The notes under the pieces: model-generated
What the model was told of the DNA's origin: nothing
Seen by the model: only the letters and a program-made list of their open reading frames with translations
Database searches by the model: none
Shown: positions 8,341-23,277 of the stretch, piece by piece
Numbering within the stretch: position 1 is the first letter of the stretch
Layout: every line of letters starts with the position of its first letter
Made by a program: the position numbers and the translations under genes
Sequence record: MN445184
Strand: one strand, 5' to 3'
Length of the DNA: 64,000 nucleotides
DNA from: Escherichia phage vB_EcoA_4HA11

Positions 8341-8348
8341 TATAAATA
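8341..8348 (+). promoter_or_regulatory. T4-type late promoter TATAAATA
   Basis: Exact TATAAATA ~35 nt upstream of GTG 8383, with GGAG between. Confidence 0.6.
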
Positions 8349-11209: not shown

Positions 11210-11492
11210 GAATCGCCTCCAATACGTGTCGTAGAAATATAATAACTGCTCCCACCAGCGTAGAAAACAGGACAATCCTGCTTGCTTTATCACGCAGCAA
11301 AACATATTCGGCCAACATATCAGATTGATTTGCAGCTCTTACATTGACGTCACTATGTGGTGAAACCGCATAGAAAGATACCATGGCACTTAATGAATGA
11401 AGGAATGTCAAGAATCCCTTAATCCAAACAAACGCCGTCATCAACAGCAAGGCGAAAAGCAGTATATCTGCCAGCAGCCAGTAGTTAATCAT
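11196..11492 (-). CDS. Small membrane protein
   Basis: 98 aa with two or three hydrophobic helices (LLADILLFALLLMTAFVWI, IVLFSTLVGAVIIFL). Confidence 0.4.
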   Translation of the reverse strand: MINYWLLADILLFALLLMTAFVWIKGFLTFLHSLSAMVSFYAVSPHSDVNVRAANQSDMLAEYVLLRDKASRIVLFSTLVGAVIIFLRHVLEAIHAVL

Positions 11493-12096
11493 TTCTTACA
11501 CCTCTATTGAAATCAGGATAATTTTCTATGAAGTAAGGACCAGAAACCATATTTGCAAACGAATCCACGAGGTCATCGATTGGCTTTGGATCCTTCACAT
11601 CCAACATGTCCATTATACCGCGCATCTTAACGTTGAACAGCTTCTCAAAGTGATCTATCATGACCAATTTGTCGGCATTTCCTTTACCACAAAAATGTTT
11701 CTTAACAAAAGACGGGGTAACAATCTGAAATTCCATATTGTTACGGCGCATCGCTTGTTTCAATAGAGATGTGTTCTCGGCGGTTTGGCATATGTTGTTG
11801 GAGTTTTTTGAATTCCCCATAGCATAGCCTTCTAGGGTGATGAAATCCGGCTTCTCTGTAAGAAGTACGGCTTCAGCCCATTTGGAAATGTTATAAAACC
11901 GTTCTTCGGGGGATTCATATTTGGGTTGACGTAAAATAAGAATATTGTGTCGCACTTGACGACAGTGCTTCTCAACGGTATGATGTGCATAGAAATGAAG
12001 ATGATCAAAATCCAGAGGATCTTTGTCGTCCCAGAAGCACATGGCTGGACAGCCGTAAGAATAGTCGATTCCGCAAAATTTCATAAAAATACCCAT
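11485..12096 (-). CDS. Hypothetical protein, possible RNase H-fold (RuvC-like) nuclease
   Basis: 203 aa; N-terminal MKFCGIDYS resembles the RuvC GIDPG start, with downstream acidic residues; weak. Confidence 0.35.
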   Translation of the reverse strand: MGIFMKFCGIDYSYGCPAMCFWDDKDPLDFDHLHFYAHHTVEKHCRQVRHNILILRQPKYESPEERFYNISKWAEAVLLTEKPDFITLEGYAMGNSKNSNNICQTAENTSLLKQAMRRNNMEFQIVTPSFVKKHFCGKGNADKLVMIDHFEKLFNVKMRGIMDMLDVKDPKPIDDLVDSFANMVSGPYFIENYPDFNRGVRND

Positions 12097-13134: not shown

Positions 13135-13142
13135 TATAAATA
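13135..13142 (+). promoter_or_regulatory. T4-type late promoter TATAAATA
   Basis: Exact TATAAATA ~29 nt upstream of ATG 13171, with GTGGAG between. Confidence 0.6.
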
Positions 13143-13170: not shown

Positions 13171-13977
13171 ATGAATTTACCATCATTGCCCAAAACTGAG
13201 AGAACACATAAAAGTGATTTCTGGCCGACTGTGATCAAATACCGCGCCTTTACAGCAGGGCAACAGACCATGTTACTTCAGGTTGCTGATCCGAACACTC
13301 CTATGAGTGAGCGCGTGGCAACATTGGAGCAACTATTTGACAGTTGTGTTGATGCTGGCGTTCCCTTTAGTAAACTGCCAATCGGTGTTACTGAAGAAGT
13401 ATTTTTAAAGATGCGCTGTATATCTATCGGCGAGGTCATGAAGATACGTTACAAATGTAATAACAAAGTTCAAGCCGAAACCAATGAAGGTGGTGAAGAA
13501 CCAGTTTCTGGCCTTAAAGATTGTGGTCAAGAGCTTGTGTTACCGATCCCGCTCAATCAGGTAAAATGCGTGTCCCCAGAAGGCTTCAGGGAGACGTTTG
13601 ATCTACCAGGTGGTTATCATATAAAGATGCGCCAGCCGTCCTTCTCGGATGCCTCAGTGCTTAATGAAGCATCCTCTGTTGAACAAATGATTGCCACCTT
13701 TATCGATTGTCTGTATGACGACGATGGTCAGGTTTGGAAGGTGGAAAATCCGGCTGAACCTGGTATCGATCCAGAAGTTGCTAAAGAACGCCAACGCATT
13801 AAGGATGAATTTGTCAAATGGGTCGGGGACAATATTGAATCTGAGATTGTTCAGGACATTTCGAATGATTTCTTTAAAAAGATTCCGCGTATTCGTTACG
13901 CGACAAAAATTAAATGCCCTTCGTGTGGGAAAGAACACGAAGTCAAATTTAACAGTGTCACCGAGATTTTCATTTAA
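13171..13977 (+). CDS. Late protein, probably baseplate or virion-associated, with C-terminal CxxC
   Basis: 268 aa; late promoter and SD; followed by a hairpin terminator and then gp5/gp25. Confidence 0.55.
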   Translation: MNLPSLPKTERTHKSDFWPTVIKYRAFTAGQQTMLLQVADPNTPMSERVATLEQLFDSCVDAGVPFSKLPIGVTEEVFLKMRCISIGEVMKIRYKCNNKVQAETNEGGEEPVSGLKDCGQELVLPIPLNQVKCVSPEGFRETFDLPGGYHIKMRQPSFSDASVLNEASSVEQMIATFIDCLYDDDGQVWKVENPAEPGIDPEVAKERQRIKDEFVKWVGDNIESEIVQDISNDFFKKIPRIRYATKIKCPSCGKEHEVKFNSVTEIFI

Positions 13978-14126
13978 TTTTTGAAATTGATTTACTCTCC
14001 TATTTTGTGATGTGTGACGAATTAAAGGCACACGGCTATAGCATATTTGAAATCAGTGAATCGATGCCGTGGCATCTTGATTTGCTTACCGAGACACTGA
14101 AAATTAGATTGTCTAAGAAATCTTCC

Positions 14127-14154
14127 AACCCCACGTAATGTGGGGTTTTCTTTG
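14127..14154 (+). terminator. Rho-independent terminator
   Basis: AACCCCAC-GTAAT-GTGGGGTT followed by TTCTTTG. Confidence 0.6.
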
Positions 14155-14454
14155 CTTACCTGTATTACCGTTTAAGAAAGGATTGTTTAACCCGAAATTG
14201 CTATAACACCATTGTTCCTGATGTGAATGTTGTGTAAATCTGTTTTGAATTTGTTTTGAAACAAAAATAATGCTTTTCTACGCATGTTCTGAGGTGTACA
14301 GTATTTTCCTCGCCTTTATGCCTCCATGGCATTGGAATGGGACTGCCTGTCAAGGCGGTGTTACGAGCTTCAGCGAGTAGGAACGAAAAGAATAAAGGTT
14401 GAACGGAAGCAGAGCTTCCTATAATATATTATTCGACAGATTTCAAATCCCCGC

Positions 14455-14462
14455 CATAAATA
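14455..14462 (+). promoter_or_regulatory. Probable late promoter variant CATAAATA
   Basis: 7 of 8 match to TATAAATA, ~22 nt upstream of the gp5-like ATG. Confidence 0.35.
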
Positions 14463-14483
14463 TCACATGATTCTAATTGACTA

Positions 14484-16109
14484 ATGGGTTTCAATATGTT
14501 AGACAACTTGCGTTGGTTTTACGGGCGCGTTGAAGACGTGAATGATCCCGATCAAAACGGGCGCGTCGCAGTACGCATCTATGGGGTACACACGGAGGAT
14601 ACCACTCTCCTGCCTACAGAATTATTGCCTTGGGGTAAAATGCTTATGCCAGCATCTAACGCCTCCTCGGCAGGTTTAGGCTGGTCTCCGACGGGTATCA
14701 CTGTCGGCTCTGACGTTATGGGGTTTGCTTTGGATGAAGCATATCAGAACATCCGTATTGCATGGGTATGGCCAGCAGCAACACCAACAGATGGGTCAGA
14801 TACAAACCCATTGGCGCTGGGTCAGGTCGTTCAATCTATAGAAAGACAGAAGTATAATGCCGTCGAGAATGTTCCTGTTAAGATTGAGGATGAACCACAA
14901 CCGGATCCACAACCACCAGTAGACGGATATGATCCTGAGAAGTGGATGACCGTGGCTCGTGGGGAATTGGGTGTCAAAGAATATTCTGGTAAGTTCAATA
15001 ACAACCCAAGGATATTGGAATATCATAAGACAACTTCCCTGGGGGCGTCAGAAGATGAAGTTAGTTGGTGTGCGTCGTTTGTCGGATGGGTTCTGATACA
15101 GGCCGGATATACATCAACACGTTCTGCTTTGGCTCGTTCATATTTACAATGGGGGTCTCCTCTGTCAGAACCACGTTACGGCGCTGTTGTAGTGTTCCGG
15201 CGCGGGAACAACCCGACATTCGGTCACGTTGCATTCGTTCAGAAATTTGACGCCAACTACGTTTGGTGTATCGGGGGAAACCAATCCGATTCTGTGAAGG
15301 TGAGCCGTTTTAGCCGCTCATCCGTGTTGGGTTATCGTTGGCCAGGTCCAGCAACTACAGCTTCAGCAGCTCCGGCACAACAAAACGGTAAATGGTCTGA
15401 ACCTATTCCAGATCGTACCCCGAAAGTCCAAGAAACACCGCCTCCTTCTGGTCGTGTTCAGGATATTGACAACACAGGAGAGGTATCGGTTCCTTCGGCT
15501 GGAGGGTCTCGTTATCCATACAACAATGTTATGGCTTCTCGAGCTGGGCATATTATGGAGGTCGATGACACTCCAGGCGGGGAACGTTTGCATTGGATGC
15601 ACTCTTCTGGGTCTTACAAGCAAATGCTTCCTGACGGTGATGTTGTTAATAAATCAGTCAAAGATCATTATGACCTGACGATGTTCGACAAACGTTATTA
15701 TGTGGGGGGTGATCATAACCTGACAATTGGTGGGACTGAAGTACAGCGCAAGAAAGGAGAAGTTTACCACTTACACTCTTCTAACTATTCCAATGTGGTC
15801 GCTGGAACAGCGTTGATGAAATTTTCCCAATTGGCTGAGATACAGGCACAGAACGTGTTGCGTCTCATCTGTGAAATGTTGGAAGTTTCCAATACTTTGA
15901 AAGTGCCTAAAATACTGGCTAGTGAAATAGTTTGTGATAAGTTGTCGGTGGCGCAGACTATTGAAGGCAACATCAAATATGCTGAAGGCGCTGGCCGCGC
16001 CGCCTCACGTGCGGGGGCAACTCCTGTAACAACTACAGGCCCAGGTCCAATTGATATAAAACCGGAGTTAGAGGATAACGGCGGCAATTTTGGTGGTAAA
16101 GGCGCATGA
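14484..16109 (+). CDS. 5: Baseplate hub/central spike protein gp5-like with CHAP (NlpC/P60-type) peptidase domain
   Basis: 541 aa. N-terminal LRWFYGRVEDVNDPDQNGRVAVRIYGVHT resembles the gp5 OB domain; central WCASFVGWVL...GHVAFV is a Cys/His CHAP signature. Confidence 0.7.
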   Translation: MGFNMLDNLRWFYGRVEDVNDPDQNGRVAVRIYGVHTEDTTLLPTELLPWGKMLMPASNASSAGLGWSPTGITVGSDVMGFALDEAYQNIRIAWVWPAATPTDGSDTNPLALGQVVQSIERQKYNAVENVPVKIEDEPQPDPQPPVDGYDPEKWMTVARGELGVKEYSGKFNNNPRILEYHKTTSLGASEDEVSWCASFVGWVLIQAGYTSTRSALARSYLQWGSPLSEPRYGAVVVFRRGNNPTFGHVAFVQKFDANYVWCIGGNQSDSVKVSRFSRSSVLGYRWPGPATTASAAPAQQNGKWSEPIPDRTPKVQETPPPSGRVQDIDNTGEVSVPSAGGSRYPYNNVMASRAGHIMEVDDTPGGERLHWMHSSGSYKQMLPDGDVVNKSVKDHYDLTMFDKRYYVGGDHNLTIGGTEVQRKKGEVYHLHSSNYSNVVAGTALMKFSQLAEIQAQNVLRLICEMLEVSNTLKVPKILASEIVCDKLSVAQTIEGNIKYAEGAGRAASRAGATPVTTTGPGPIDIKPELEDNGGNFGGKGA

Positions 16110-16173
16110 TTACACTGGTGAGGGCAGATAATGCCCTCTCGTGCTGGAGAGGCAATATCCAAAGGGGTTTAAC

Positions 16174-16554
16174 ATGAAAGAGTACAAGGACATTGACCTG
16201 AAGTTTGGCATGCATCCGGTCACCAAAGATGTCACTAAGAAAACAGGCATTTATGCTGTACTACAATCTGTGCGTAATATAGTGATGGCGACGGTAGGTG
16301 ATTGGCCGACGTATCCGAGTATTGGGGCGGGGTTGTATACCATGCTGGGAGAAAATACAAATCCCACGATACAGGTCGACGTGAAGAACAAAGTTGAAGA
16401 TGCCATTGCTCTTTTTGAGCCAAGAGCTGAATTGCAATCTGTTGATGTATCATTGTCGGACGATTATCATTCTCTGGGCGTAACCATCACGTTCTATGTG
16501 GTCAACAACCCAGAGCCGATAACAGACACCATATGGTTGAAACGGACAAATTGA
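16174..16554 (+). CDS. 25: Baseplate wedge protein gp25-like
   Basis: ORF track 16141..16554; ATG 16174 with AAGGGG SD. GDWPTYPSIGAGLY...VEDAIALFEPRAEL...LGVTITFYVVNNPE parallels T4 gp25. Confidence 0.7.
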   Translation: MKEYKDIDLKFGMHPVTKDVTKKTGIYAVLQSVRNIVMATVGDWPTYPSIGAGLYTMLGENTNPTIQVDVKNKVEDAIALFEPRAELQSVDVSLSDDYHSLGVTITFYVVNNPEPITDTIWLKRTN

Positions 16555-22413: not shown

Positions 22414-23208
22414 TTAGCAGAAACTCTTGTATGCTGCCGCCAGTTTAGTATCATACTGGTTTTTCGCATATGCCGGACCATTGTACCGACGAGCAAACTC
22501 GGCCCAATTCTTATTCTTCAGGGCTTTCCACATATTGGCGTCAGCTTTGATGAATTTCACAAATGCCAGAAGATGAGCGCGTTCACCAGTCAGGAAATCA
22601 GTGAACATCTCTTTGGCATTTGAATAGCCACAGATTTGGCAGTTGAACCCCATGATCTGGAATAGGCCGTAGGAAGCACTCTCGTAAGCGCAGTCCTCGT
22701 CAAGGGCGATTGCACCCTGAAGGCGTTCCAACTCCGCGTCTCCGCCGATATACCCGCCAGAATTGGGGTTAACCAATGTTGGGTAGAGTTGGTACAGAGC
22801 ATTGGCTCTTGCTTGCCCGAATTTGGCCGTCACCTTTTTGTACATGATGTGGCGCTCAAACAGAGTTTTGATCTTGCCAGTTTTGGTAAAACCCGTGCCA
22901 CGGGATTCTACCTGATTCACAGCTTTCATACTGGCCAGCTCAACACCAAGTTCACGTGCTGCGTCAACCAAGTCCGCTTCGGTCAGATGTTCCTGGTGAG
23001 CGTCTCCAGCGTTGCGGATAGCATAGAAGGTCTTTGGCCCAGCAATACCATCAATAACCAATCCAGCACCTGCCTGAACGGATTTGACGGCATTCTCTGT
23101 TGCCTTACCAAATATGCCATCGGCTGTAAGAGAGAAACCGATTTTGTTGAGGCTTTGTTGAAGTGCTTTGACTTCAGAACCTCGGTTGCCAAGTTTTAGA
23201 ATGGCCAT
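22414..23208 (-). CDS. Endolysin: peptidoglycan-binding domain plus N-acetylmuramidase-like domain
   Basis: ORF track 22414..23226; ATG 23208 with GGAGG SD. N-terminal GSEVKALQQSLNKIGF...DGIFGKATENAV is a PG-binding repeat; C-terminal YGLFQIMGFN...NWAEFARRYNGP resembles phage muramidases. Confidence 0.7.
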   Translation of the reverse strand: MAILKLGNRGSEVKALQQSLNKIGFSLTADGIFGKATENAVKSVQAGAGLVIDGIAGPKTFYAIRNAGDAHQEHLTEADLVDAARELGVELASMKAVNQVESRGTGFTKTGKIKTLFERHIMYKKVTAKFGQARANALYQLYPTLVNPNSGGYIGGDAELERLQGAIALDEDCAYESASYGLFQIMGFNCQICGYSNAKEMFTDFLTGERAHLLAFVKFIKADANMWKALKNKNWAEFARRYNGPAYAKNQYDTKLAAAYKSFC

Positions 23209-23277
23209 AAGAAAATACCTCCGCAATGTATGCGAAGGTATTTAAAGTGAAAGTCGAACTTGAGGATTTAGTGTCGA

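What the first reader, a model, noticed from the sequence alone, without database searches (positions are those of the whole stretch)
14484..16109. gp5-like baseplate spike carries a CHAP peptidase instead of a lysozyme domain
The N-terminus resembles the gp5 OB domain, but the enzymatic insert has a Cys/His CHAP (NlpC/P60) signature (WCASFVGWVL ... GHVAFV) rather than the T4 lysozyme fold. This implies peptide-bond rather than glycan cleavage during cell-wall penetration. The gp25-like gene follows immediately, a P2-like rather than T4-like arrangement.
Basis: partly seen in the sequence, partly recalled or inferred. Interest (0 to 1): 0.4.

Follow-up and report, generated by a model that had tools for sequence, protein, structure and literature searches.

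The report
Phage tail spike with CHAP peptidase
This is the cell-puncturing tail spike protein of a Vi01-like Salmonella phage, which carries a cysteine peptidase (CHAP/NlpC-P60) cell-wall-cutting module where phage T4 has a lysozyme; the reading is correct, but it was published for this phage group in 2011 and is written into public annotations.

Summary
The ORF at 14484..16109 (+, 541 aa) is real and has the claimed architecture. It has a T4 gp5-type OB domain (Pfam Gp5_OB, E 6e-10). Its central CHAP / NlpC-P60 module matches NCBIfam TIGR02594 over the full profile (E 8.5e-39; Pfam CHAP E 3e-10). Its C-terminal segment is homologous to the start of the T4 gp5 beta-helix.

No lysozyme or other glycosidase signal was found by profile or by fold. 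C196 and H248 are invariant and align with the proven catalytic dyad of Tae3 and of NlpC/P60 endopeptidases. The CHAP module is the best-conserved part of the protein.

The window is a Kuttervirus (Ackermannviridae), 99.3% identical to Salmonella phages S118 and SeHz-1. Kutter et al. 2011 described this same domain swap for the CBA120 ortholog. The S118 RefSeq note already lists "gp5-like OB-fold; CHAP".

Among gp5-OB proteins generally, the enzyme module is interchangeable (M15 peptidases, amidases, several lysozyme types, CHAP).

The "P2-like" gene-order remark is half right. The order here is gp26-like, gp5-like, gp25-like, which is T4's 26→25 pair with gene 5 between.

Peptide- or amide-bond cleavage is inferred, not shown. 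The only uncharacterised piece is the distal ~105 residues of the spike.

Verdict: correct, ordinary, already known.

The parts
14484..16109 (+). Whole gene for the gp5-like central spike protein (541 aa; the alternative start at 14496 gives 537 aa as annotated in CBA120 and S118)
   Evidence: ORF listing. [quoted passage not shown] 98% identical to the Vi01 protein P0001. Relatives' annotation.
14496..14783 (+). N-terminal gp5-type OB domain (about residues 5-100), the part that in T4 docks onto the gp27 hub trimer
   Evidence: Pfam Gp5_OB, E 6.2e-10. phmmer and BLASTP align residues 7-87 with T4 gp5 residues 6-91. AF2 pLDDT is about 80-88 with beta strands.
14784..14942 (+). Linker 1 (residues 101-153), including the Pro-rich PQPDPQPP stretch
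   Evidence: pLDDT below 50 for residues 100-141. No profile match.
14943..15341 (+). CHAP / NlpC-P60 (TIGR02594) peptidoglycan amidase/peptidase module (residues 154-286)
   Evidence: TIGR02594, E 8.5e-39, full length. Pfam CHAP, E 3.3e-10. AF2 domain model with pLDDT 89.7 and pTM 0.86. Foldseek PDB hits MepS, Acd24020, LytE, LysK CHAPK and the phage 812 hub CHAP. Mean identity of 85% over 17 orthologs, the highest of any region.
15069..15071 (+). Codon of Cys196, the predicted catalytic nucleophile
   Evidence: Invariant in 19 divergent domain homologs. Aligned with Tae3 C23 and with the Cys of CwlO and the C. difficile autolysins. Tae3 dyad taken from bioRxiv 10.1101/2024.06.29.601107.
15225..15227 (+). 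Codon of His248, the predicted catalytic base
   Evidence: Invariant. Aligned with Tae3 H81 and with the HVG motif of NlpC/P60 enzymes.
15279..15284 (+). Codons of Asn266 and Gln267 (GGNQ motif), candidates for the third polar residue or oxyanion partner
   Evidence: Invariant in all homologs. The role is inferred only, because model geometry could not be measured.
15342..15503 (+). Linker 2 (residues 287-340), predicted disordered, with the family-conserved NGKWSEPIPDRTP stretch. It occupies the position of the T4 gp5 linker that holds the maturation cleavage site
   Evidence: pLDDT below 50 for residues 293-342. Conservation seen in the A1 and A2 consensus. The T4 cleavage site is from established knowledge and was not tested here.
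15504..15791 (+). Proximal needle segment (residues 341-436), homologous to T4 gp5 residues 384-477 (start of the trimeric beta-helix; YPYN...DDTPGGER motif)
   Evidence: phmmer domain E 1.4e-15 against T4 gp5 and 8.5e-16 against 9f4a. BLASTP. Nearly invariant columns Y344, P345, N347, G355, H356, E359, D361, D362, T363, P364.
15792..16106 (+). Distal spike part and C-terminal tail (residues 437-541). It is conserved within Ackermannviridae but has no recognisable relatives. It ends with the invariant L-x-D-x-G-G-N-F motif
   Evidence: No Pfam hit. No 8-residue periodicity, z 0.0 against 3.8 for T4 gp5C. No PDB relative with a family profile. 22 invariant columns.
13171..13977 (+). Upstream gene, a T4 gp26-like baseplate hub protein
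   Evidence: Pfam T4_baseplate PF12322, E 1e-51. PHROG 150 'baseplate hub', E 1.1e-63. S118 note 'T4 gp26-like'.
16141..16554 (+). Downstream gene, a gp25/gpW-like baseplate wedge protein (annotated start in relatives at 16174)
   Evidence: Pfam GPW_gp25, E 1.7e-8. PHROG 261, E 3.5e-33. phmmer against T4 gp25, E 1.8e-14.
14127..14157 (+). Terminator-like hairpin (9-bp stem, 5 G-C pairs, T-rich tail) after a 43-codon ORF (14007..14138). It may separate the gp26 transcript from the gp5-gp25 transcript
   Evidence: Consensus scan and sequence. The number of such sites in the region is not above chance, so this is weak evidence.
14455..14462 (+). CATAAATA, a one-mismatch match to the T4 late-promoter box, 22 nt upstream of the ATG at 14484 and 34 nt upstream of the ATG at 14496
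   Evidence: Sequence. Exact TATAAATA boxes sit about 29-35 nt upstream of two other + strand late genes, at 13135 before gp26-like and at 8341 before the tail-tube gene. The count is not above chance, so the function is inferred.

Best explanation
The gene encodes the central cell-puncturing spike of a Kuttervirus (Vi01/CBA120-like, Ackermannviridae) contractile tail. It is a T4 gp5 homolog with three parts. The N-terminal OB domain seats the trimer under the baseplate hub. The C-terminal region forms the trimeric needle. The lysozyme module between them has been exchanged for a papain-like Cys-His amidase/peptidase of the CHAP / NlpC-P60 superfamily (TIGR02594 subfamily).

The proposed mechanism is as follows. 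On sheath contraction the needle is driven through the outer membrane. The three CHAP modules then reach the periplasm and locally cut peptidoglycan stem peptides or cross-links, an amide bond rather than the glycan backbone. The nucleophile is Cys196 and the base is His248, oriented by Asn266 or Gln267. This opens a hole for the tail tube.

Shown here: the domain architecture, the fold class, conservation of the catalytic residues, and homology to T4 gp5 at both ends. Taken from the literature: orthologs are present in the virion. Inferred: trimer formation, docking on the hub, timing of action, and the bond cleaved.
For: - Architecture: Gp5_OB and CHAP both score above Pfam's gathering cut-offs. 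TIGR02594 matches full length at E 8.5e-39. T4 gp5 matches at E ~7e-30 in two flanking stretches only.
- Fold: the domain model has pLDDT 89.7, and its top PDB neighbours are all NlpC/P60 or CHAP peptidoglycan peptidases. Viral neighbours are TIGR02594, CHAP or endolysin proteins and the Serratia phage 3M gp5 at TM 0.94.
- Catalytic residues: W195, C196, H248, N266 and Q267 are invariant in 19 divergent homologs. C196 and H248 align with Tae3 C23 and H81.
- Selection: the CHAP region shows 85% mean identity across 17 orthologs, against 57-77% for the other regions, and the catalytic residues are kept in all of them.
- Virion location: the ViI ortholog was seen in virion proteomics (PMC3184105). 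'Tail associated lysozyme' was detected in the Sajous1 virion proteome (PMC10892097).
- Separate exit enzyme: a PG_binding_1 + N-acetylmuramidase endolysin lies at 22414..23226.
- Precedent: an active CHAP domain sits in the baseplate hub of phage 812 (PMC13433997).
Against: - No enzymatic assay exists for this protein or, as far as the searched literature shows, for any Ackermannviridae ortholog.
- The bond specificity cannot be assigned. The nearest solved sequence relative, Tae3 (E 1.6e-4), cleaves mDAP-D-Ala cross-links. The nearest fold relatives (LytE, CwlO, Acd24020) are gamma-D-Glu-mDAP endopeptidases. Some CHAP domains are MurNAc-L-Ala amidases.
- Geometry of the third triad residue could not be measured.
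- The full-length model is poor (pLDDT 59) because a monomer cannot form the trimeric needle.
- No gp27 or PAAR partner could be detected by single-sequence search.
Confidence: 0.85

Rival explanations
1. The CHAP-like module is catalytically dead and serves only as a structural or peptidoglycan-binding domain, like the CHAP-fold 'clip' domain of the phage 812 weld protein.
For: Inactive CHAP folds do exist in baseplates: the 812 clip domain lacks the Cys-His-Glu residues (PMC13433997). One distant homolog, P0039, has lost the Cys (WASAF). No activity data exist for this family of spikes.
Against: Cys196, His248, Asn266 and Gln267 are retained in the window protein, in all 17 orthologs and in 2 distant spike relatives. 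They are invariant in the 19-sequence domain alignment. The domain is the most conserved region of the protein.
Confidence: 0.05
2. The module is a glycan-cleaving enzyme (a lysozyme or transglycosylase) too diverged to be recognised, so the spike works chemically like T4 gp5.
For: Databases label it 'tail lysozyme' by transfer from T4. Kutter et al. loosely call it a 'lysozyme' in their Discussion.
Against: There is no lysozyme, GH or SLT profile match at E up to 0.1. The fold model matches only papain-like amidases. T4 gp5 residues 174-339 do not align with the middle of this protein.
Confidence: 0.01
3. The enzyme acts mainly at the end of infection, or in lysis from without, as a lysin rather than as an entry tool. 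Alternatively it targets a non-peptidoglycan amide such as the Braun lipoprotein-mDAP link.
For: TIGR02594 and CHAP domains occur in endolysins and in T6SS toxins. Substrate specificity is unknown.
Against: The domain is embedded between a hub-docking OB domain and a needle, and it is co-located with the baseplate genes gp26 and gp25. Orthologs are virion proteins. The genome has its own muramidase endolysin and an annotated spanin.
Confidence: 0.07

Closest known systems
CBA120 gp5 homolog (orf92) and Vi01 'gp5 tail-associated lysozyme' (Kuttervirus, Ackermannviridae), described by Kutter et al. 2011, Virol J 8:430
   Same: It is the same protein family: 98% identity to the Vi01 protein, and the surrounding DNA is 99.3% identical to S118. 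The paper reports the same architecture: no lysozyme, a CHAP/TIGR02594/NlpC-P60 domain at aa 150-282, and T4 gp5-like flanks at aa 3-109 and 334-437.
   Different: There is no material difference. The window protein is an allele of it. The choice of start codon gives 541 or 537 aa.
Bacteriophage T4 gp5 (PDB 1K28, 1WTH, 5IV5)
   Same: The N-terminal OB domain and the first ~95 residues of the C-terminal needle are homologous. An enzymatic module is inserted at the same topological position, between the OB domain and the needle. Baseplate genes sit alongside.
   Different: The module is a Cys-His papain-like amidase, not a T4 lysozyme. The distal needle lacks the octapeptide periodicity and the Gp5_C repeats. 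No gp5.4 PAAR or gp27 homolog is detectable by simple search. Gene 5 lies between the gp26 and gp25 homologs, not in a 53-5-...-6 cluster. T4's spike lysozyme is a paralog of its endolysin, whereas here the endolysin is an unrelated muramidase.
Staphylococcus phage 812 / K baseplate hub 'cleaver' CHAP domain (PDB 9EUM; TAME of phage K)
   Same: It is a CHAP-fold peptidoglycan hydrolase built into the central baseplate complex of a contractile tail. Its activity is demonstrated by zymogram. It is a fold match to the model here (rank 14).
   Different: It sits on the gp27-like hub protein, not on the gp5-like spike. The host is Gram-positive. The triad is Cys-His-Glu. Sequence and fold similarity are weak (TM 0.36, hmmsearch E 0.42).
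T6SS amidase effectors of the NlpC/P60-CHAP superfamily (Tae3, PDB 4HZ9; TIGR02594-domain effectors next to VgrG in Stenotrophomonas)
   Same: Tae3 is the best solved sequence relative of the central domain (E 1.6e-4), with the catalytic Cys and His aligned. TIGR02594 domains are delivered by another contractile injection machine. The target is periplasmic peptidoglycan.
   Different: These are free or VgrG-associated toxins with immunity proteins, used to kill cells rather than to open a local hole. Tae3 uses a Cys-His-Ser arrangement (PMC10318531), whereas Asn and Gln are the conserved candidates here.
Phage P2 gpV-gpW
   Same: The spike gene is immediately followed by the gp25/W wedge gene on the same strand.
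   Different: gpV has no enzymatic module and carries an Apex motif, which is not found here. P2 continues with J, I, H and G. Here the flanking gene is a T4 gp26-type hub protein, and the gp6-like gene lies elsewhere in the genome.

Membership tests
T4 gp5-type central spike protein | N-terminal gp5 OB domain (PF06714) | tested here: met
   E 6.2e-10, 39.9 bits against a cut-off of 25. Residues 7-87 align with T4 gp5 residues 6-91.
T4 gp5-type central spike protein | C-terminal needle region homologous to gp5C | tested here: met
   Residues 341-436 align with T4 gp5 residues 384-477 at domain E 1.4e-15.
T4 gp5-type central spike protein | Regular octapeptide triple beta-helix through to the C-terminus (Gp5_C repeats PF06715 / Gp5_trimer_C PF22178) | tested here: not met
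   No Pfam hit at E up to 5 on residues 341-541 or 430-541. Lag-8 hydrophobic autocorrelation gives z 0.0, against 3.8 for T4 gp5 residues 436-575.
T4 gp5-type central spike protein | T4-type lysozyme middle domain (PF00959) | tested here: not met
   No lysozyme profile match. The fold matches are NlpC/P60 and CHAP only. This is the known variation, not grounds for exclusion: of 93 gp5-OB proteins sampled, only 1 has PF00959.
T4 gp5-type central spike protein | Virion component, trimer on the tail axis bound to a gp27-like hub, with a PAAR cap | not testable with these tools
   Virion presence of orthologs is reported in the literature. No T4 gp27 or gp5.4 homolog was found by phmmer in the window or in 146 kb of S118. 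This is inconclusive because those families diverge fast.
CHAP / NlpC-P60 papain-like amidases (TIGR02594 subfamily) | Profile match above the curated cut-off | tested here: met
   TIGR02594 scores 132.9 bits against 70.55, covering profile positions 2-132 of 132. PF05257 scores 40.7 bits against 26.
CHAP / NlpC-P60 papain-like amidases (TIGR02594 subfamily) | Catalytic Cys at a helix N-terminus and a downstream catalytic His, both conserved | tested here: met
   C196 starts helix 195-206 and H248 lies in strand 247-255. Both are invariant. Both align with Tae3 C23/H81 and with the Cys and His of CwlO and LytE.
CHAP / NlpC-P60 papain-like amidases (TIGR02594 subfamily) | Papain-like alpha+beta fold | tested here: met
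   The AF2 model has pLDDT 89.7. Foldseek probability is 1.00 to MepS, Acd24020, LytE and LysK CHAPK, with target-normalised TM up to 0.69.
CHAP / NlpC-P60 papain-like amidases (TIGR02594 subfamily) | Third polar triad residue positioned on the His | tested here: inconclusive
   N266 and Q267 are invariant candidates.
CHAP / NlpC-P60 papain-like amidases (TIGR02594 subfamily) | Peptidoglycan amidase or endopeptidase activity | not testable with these tools
   Requires a zymogram or muropeptide analysis. No published assay for an Ackermannviridae ortholog was found.
P2-type spike-wedge operon (V-W-J-I) | Spike gene directly followed by the gp25/W gene | tested here: met
   The gp5-like gene ends at 16109 and the gp25-like gene starts at 16141 or 16174 on the same strand. 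P2 has V then W.
P2-type spike-wedge operon (V-W-J-I) | Continuation with the gp6/J and I wedge genes, and no T4-specific hub genes | tested here: not met
   The downstream genes are on the opposite strand. The gp6-like gene is about 85 kb away in S118. The upstream gene is T4 gp26-like. T4 has 26 and 25 abutting.

The most novel reading that the evidence does not exclude
The distal ~105 residues of the spike (residues 437-541) are conserved across Ackermannviridae, including an invariant C-terminal L-x-D-x-G-G-N-F motif. They show no T4-type octapeptide periodicity, no Pfam family and no solved relative, and no PAAR protein is detectable. The spike may therefore end in a different kind of tip from the T4 gp5C beta-helix with its PAAR cap. 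One possibility is a tip capped by the separately encoded, virion-borne Sf6-type 'tail needle knob' protein of these phages.
Probability: 0.2. Interest if true: 0.4.

Novelty: already known. Interest (0 to 1): 0.15.

Why it matters
The finding illustrates that the wall-cutting module of contractile-tail spikes is an interchangeable cassette. In a sample of 93 gp5-OB proteins, M15 peptidases, amidases, SleB-type hydrolases, several lysozyme types and CHAP all occur, and the T4-type lysozyme is rare.

For Vi01-like phages, which are used in Salmonella and E. coli O157 biocontrol, it means that entry and exit use chemically different enzymes: a spike peptidase and a muramidase endolysin. The TIGR02594 module is also a candidate Gram-negative-active virion-associated lysin.

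None of this is new knowledge. The architecture was published in 2011 and is in RefSeq notes. What remains open is the biochemistry (which bond is cut) and the structure of the spike tip.

Tried and rejected
- Glycoside-hydrolase reading: rejected. No profile or fold support.
- Rfam scan of the whole window, including the 500-nt gap upstream of the gene: nothing found.
- T4 late-promoter box TATAAATA: 3 copies in the window against 1.9 expected by chance, so not enriched. Two copies sit about 29-35 nt upstream of + strand late genes, and a one-mismatch copy precedes this gene. This is kept only as a weak lead.
- Terminator scan: the number of sites is not above chance.
- Search for gp27 and PAAR (gp5.4) partners by phmmer in the window and in 146 kb of S118: none found. 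PHROG and Pfam on the S118 gp48/gp53-adjacent 'tail protein' gave only 'tail protein', so hub identity could not be tested.
- Full-length AF2 monomer: poor (pLDDT 59), and uninformative for the needle.
- C-terminal family profile against the PDB: only chance hits to designed Top7 proteins, E 0.09.
- Literature searches for an Ackermannviridae baseplate cryo-EM structure or an activity assay of this spike: none found in the held library.
- Transferring bond specificity from Tae3 or from LytE/CwlO: rejected as unsafe at this distance.
Full report
**Observation.** The window holds an ATG-to-stop ORF at exactly 14484..16109 on the + strand, encoding 541 aa. A second in-frame ATG at 14496 is the start used in annotated relatives and gives 537 aa.

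**Identity of the genome.** The 4-kb neighbourhood is 99.3% identical to Salmonella phages SeHz-1, S115, S118 and Se-B. It matches 248 phage records over at least 80% of its length, nearly all Vi01-like phages of Salmonella, Escherichia, Klebsiella, Dickeya, Shigella and Serratia. S118 is classified as Ackermannviridae; Cvivirinae; Kuttervirus. [quoted passage not shown]

**Domain anatomy.** The protein divides into the following regions.
- *OB domain.* Pfam gives Gp5_OB at residues 39-98 (E 6.2e-10) and CHAP at residues 191-266 (E 3.3e-10), both above their gathering scores.
- *Central module.* NCBIfam TIGR02594, a subfamily of the NlpC/P60-CHAP superfamily, matches residues 154-286 over the whole profile (positions 2-132 of 132) at E 8.5e-39.
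- *T4 gp5 homology.* Against PDB sequences, T4 gp5 (1K28, 1WTH, 5IV5) and another T4-like spike (9F4A) match at E 7e-30 to 7e-33. The match is in two stretches only, residues 4-87 (OB domain) and 339-436 (T4 residues 384-477, the start of the beta-helix). The middle is not matched.

The enzymatic module therefore sits at the same topological position as the T4 lysozyme but is unrelated to it.

**Fold.**
- An AlphaFold2 model of residues 140-300, built with 28 homologs, is confident (pLDDT 89.7, pTM 0.86).
- Its PDB neighbours by Foldseek are, without exception in the top 26, papain-like peptidoglycan amidases or peptidases. They include MepS, the C. difficile autolysins Acd24020 and Acd33800, LytE, NlpC/P60 proteins, the CHAP domains of LysK, LysGH15 and PlyC, and the CHAP 'cleaver' of the phage 812 hub. 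No lysozyme appears. The E-values are modest (about 1e-3), but the probabilities are 1.00 and the result is unanimous.
- In the viral library the best match is the Serratia phage 3M gp5 (TM 0.94). It is followed by TIGR02594, CHAP and endolysin proteins.
- The full-length monomer model is poor (pLDDT 59), as expected for a protein whose needle folds only as a trimer. It does show well-formed OB and CHAP domains separated by disordered linkers at residues 100-141 and 293-342.

**Catalytic residues and conservation.**
- In a 19-sequence alignment of divergent domain homologs (down to 30% identity), the invariant columns are G163, W195, C196, H248, V249, G264, G265, N266, Q267 and V271 (renumbered to the full protein).
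- A profile of this alignment finds Tae3 (4HZ9) as the best solved relative (E 1.6e-4). It is followed by C. difficile NlpC/P60 hydrolases, CwlO and LytE. In these alignments C196 pairs with Tae3 C23 and H248 with Tae3 H81. Those two residues are the experimentally defined dyad (bioRxiv 10.1101/2024.06.29.601107).
- Across 17 Ackermannviridae orthologs the CHAP region is the best-conserved part of the protein. Its mean identity is 85%, against 71% for the OB domain, 77% for the proximal needle and 57-68% for the linkers and C-terminus. C, H, N and Q are kept in every ortholog.

This pattern argues for a functional enzyme.

**Bond cleaved.** This cannot be settled here. [quoted passage not shown] LytE and CwlO are DL-endopeptidases. 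Some CHAP domains are MurNAc-L-Ala amidases (general knowledge). It is an inference, not a demonstration.

**Context.**
- The gene is the middle of a three-gene + strand island:
  - a gp26-like hub protein (13171..13977; PF12322, E 1e-51);
  - the spike gene;
  - a gp25-like wedge protein (16141 or 16174 to 16554; PF04965, E 1.7e-8).
- The island is embedded among minus-strand replication and nucleotide-metabolism genes.
- Between the gp26-like gene and the spike gene lie 506 nt. They hold a 43-codon ORF, a terminator-like hairpin (14127-14147) and a CATAAATA box at 14455. These signals are not statistically above chance, and Rfam finds nothing there.
- Gene order comparison:
  - P2 has V-W-J-I-H-G.
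  - T4 has 26 and 25 abutting and co-directional, with gene 5 about 36 kb away in the cluster 53-5-5.1-...-5.4-6.
  - The arrangement here is best described as T4's 26→25 pair with gene 5 in between. It resembles P2 only in the spike-wedge adjacency.
- The phage's endolysin is a separate PG_binding_1 + N-acetylmuramidase protein at 22414..23226 (-). Entry and exit enzymes are therefore unrelated, unlike the gp5 and gpe lysozyme pair in T4.

**How unusual is it?**
- A HMMER scan of 1.84 billion representative proteins with the OB domain alone finds 2,661 clusters at E ≤ 1e-3.
- Pfam was run on 93 of the 150 best hits. The enzyme modules found were:
  - Phage_lysozyme2: 7
  - Peptidase_M15_3: 7
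  - Peptidase_M15_4: 3
  - Amidase_2: 3
  - Hydrolase_2: 3
  - CHAP: 3
  - Peptidase_M15_2: 2
  - GH19: 1
  - VanY: 1
  - T4-type Phage_lysozyme: 1
- Other OB + TIGR02594 spikes exist outside Ackermannviridae. One example is P0025, which adds a second, transglycosylase-like region. Others are the short OB + CHAP proteins P0027, P0061 and P0063.

Module exchange in gp5-type spikes is the rule, and CHAP is one of the options.

**Prior knowledge.**
- Kutter et al. 2011 (Virol J 8:430, PMC3184105) have a section titled 'Baseplate Lysozyme'. It states that the 537-aa CBA120 gp5 homolog lacks the usual lysozyme. It describes a putative CHAP domain of the TIGR02594 family / NlpC_P60 superfamily at aa 150-282, flanked by T4 gp5-like regions at 3-109 and 334-437. 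It also notes that the ViI ortholog was seen in virion proteomics.
- The S118 RefSeq note reads 'T4 gp5-like N-terminal OB-fold domain (IPR009590); CHAP ...'. Several GenBank records call the protein 'cell wall-associated hydrolase'.
- A 2024 proteomic study again detected the 'tail associated lysozyme' in virions of a Vi01-like phage (PMC10892097).
- A CHAP domain in the central baseplate complex of a myovirus has been proven active for phage 812/K, where it sits on the hub protein (PMC13433997).
- I found no activity assay or baseplate structure for an Ackermannviridae spike in the held library.

**What remains unexplained.**
- Homology to T4 gp5 ends at about residue 436.
- The remaining ~105 residues have no Pfam family. 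They show no 8-residue periodicity (z 0.0, against 3.8 for T4 gp5C). A family profile finds no solved relative.
- Nevertheless they contain 22 invariant columns across the family, including a terminal L-x-D-x-G-G-N-F motif. Orthologs from other Ackermannviridae genera add about 75 further residues.
- No PAAR or gp27 homolog was detectable by single-sequence search in the window or in 146 kb of S118.
- Outside the window, S118 encodes a stand-alone Sf6-type tail-needle knob protein (PF16532, E 1.9e-28). A protein annotated 'putative tail needle knob' was detected in the virion proteome of a Vi01-like phage. Whether it caps this spike is untested.

**Verdict.** The gene-order remark is half right. 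The finding is an accurate rediscovery of a published and annotated feature, so its interest is low.

Noticed in passing
window 15792..16106 (residues 437-541 of the spike protein): The distal spike region is conserved in Ackermannviridae (22 invariant columns, terminal L-x-D-x-G-G-N-F). It has no Pfam family, no T4-type 8-residue periodicity and no solved relative. Orthologs in other genera carry an extra ~75-aa C-terminal module.
   Followed up: partly
window 13978..14483: This is a 506-nt gap between the gp26-like and gp5-like genes. It holds a 43-codon ORF (14007..14138), a 9-bp-stem terminator-like hairpin (14127..14147 plus a T-rich tail) and a CATAAATA box (14455..14462). There is no Rfam match. 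CBA120 numbering skips orf91 here, so a small gene may be annotated in some relatives.
   Followed up: partly
window 8341..8348 and 13135..13142 (+): Exact T4 late-promoter boxes (TATAAATA) lie about 35 nt and 29 nt upstream of the two + strand structural genes, the tail-tube/gp54-like gene and the gp26-like gene. This fits the gp55/gp33-type late transcription encoded by these phages, although the box count in the window is not above chance.
   Followed up: partly
window 22414..23226 (-): The phage endolysin is a PG_binding_1 + N-acetylmuramidase (PF11860, E 4e-58) protein, unrelated to the spike enzyme. Compared with S118, the window appears to lack about 0.7 kb near here, possibly the HNH homing endonuclease gene that S118 carries next to nrdA.
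   Followed up: partly
L006:32068-32586 (S118, outside the window): This is a stand-alone 172-aa Sf6-type tail needle knob protein (PF16532, E 1.9e-28) in a myovirus genome. A 'putative tail needle knob' is reported in the virion proteome of a Vi01-like phage. Its place in the tail is unknown, and it could sit on the spike tip.
   Followed up: no
P0025 (metagenomic protein, 644 aa) and P0024 (627 aa): P0025 is a gp5-type spike with two wall-degrading regions in tandem between the OB domain and the needle: a transglycosylase-like stretch plus TIGR02594. P0024 is a non-spike protein with a phage lysozyme, LysM repeats and two TIGR02594 copies. Both show how freely this module is recombined.
   Followed up: no
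window 11485..12096 (-): A RuvC-like Holliday junction resolvase (PHROG 159, E 1.4e-54; Pfam RuvC, E 1e-4) lies just upstream of the baseplate island, in place of a T4 endonuclease VII-type enzyme.
   Followed up: no
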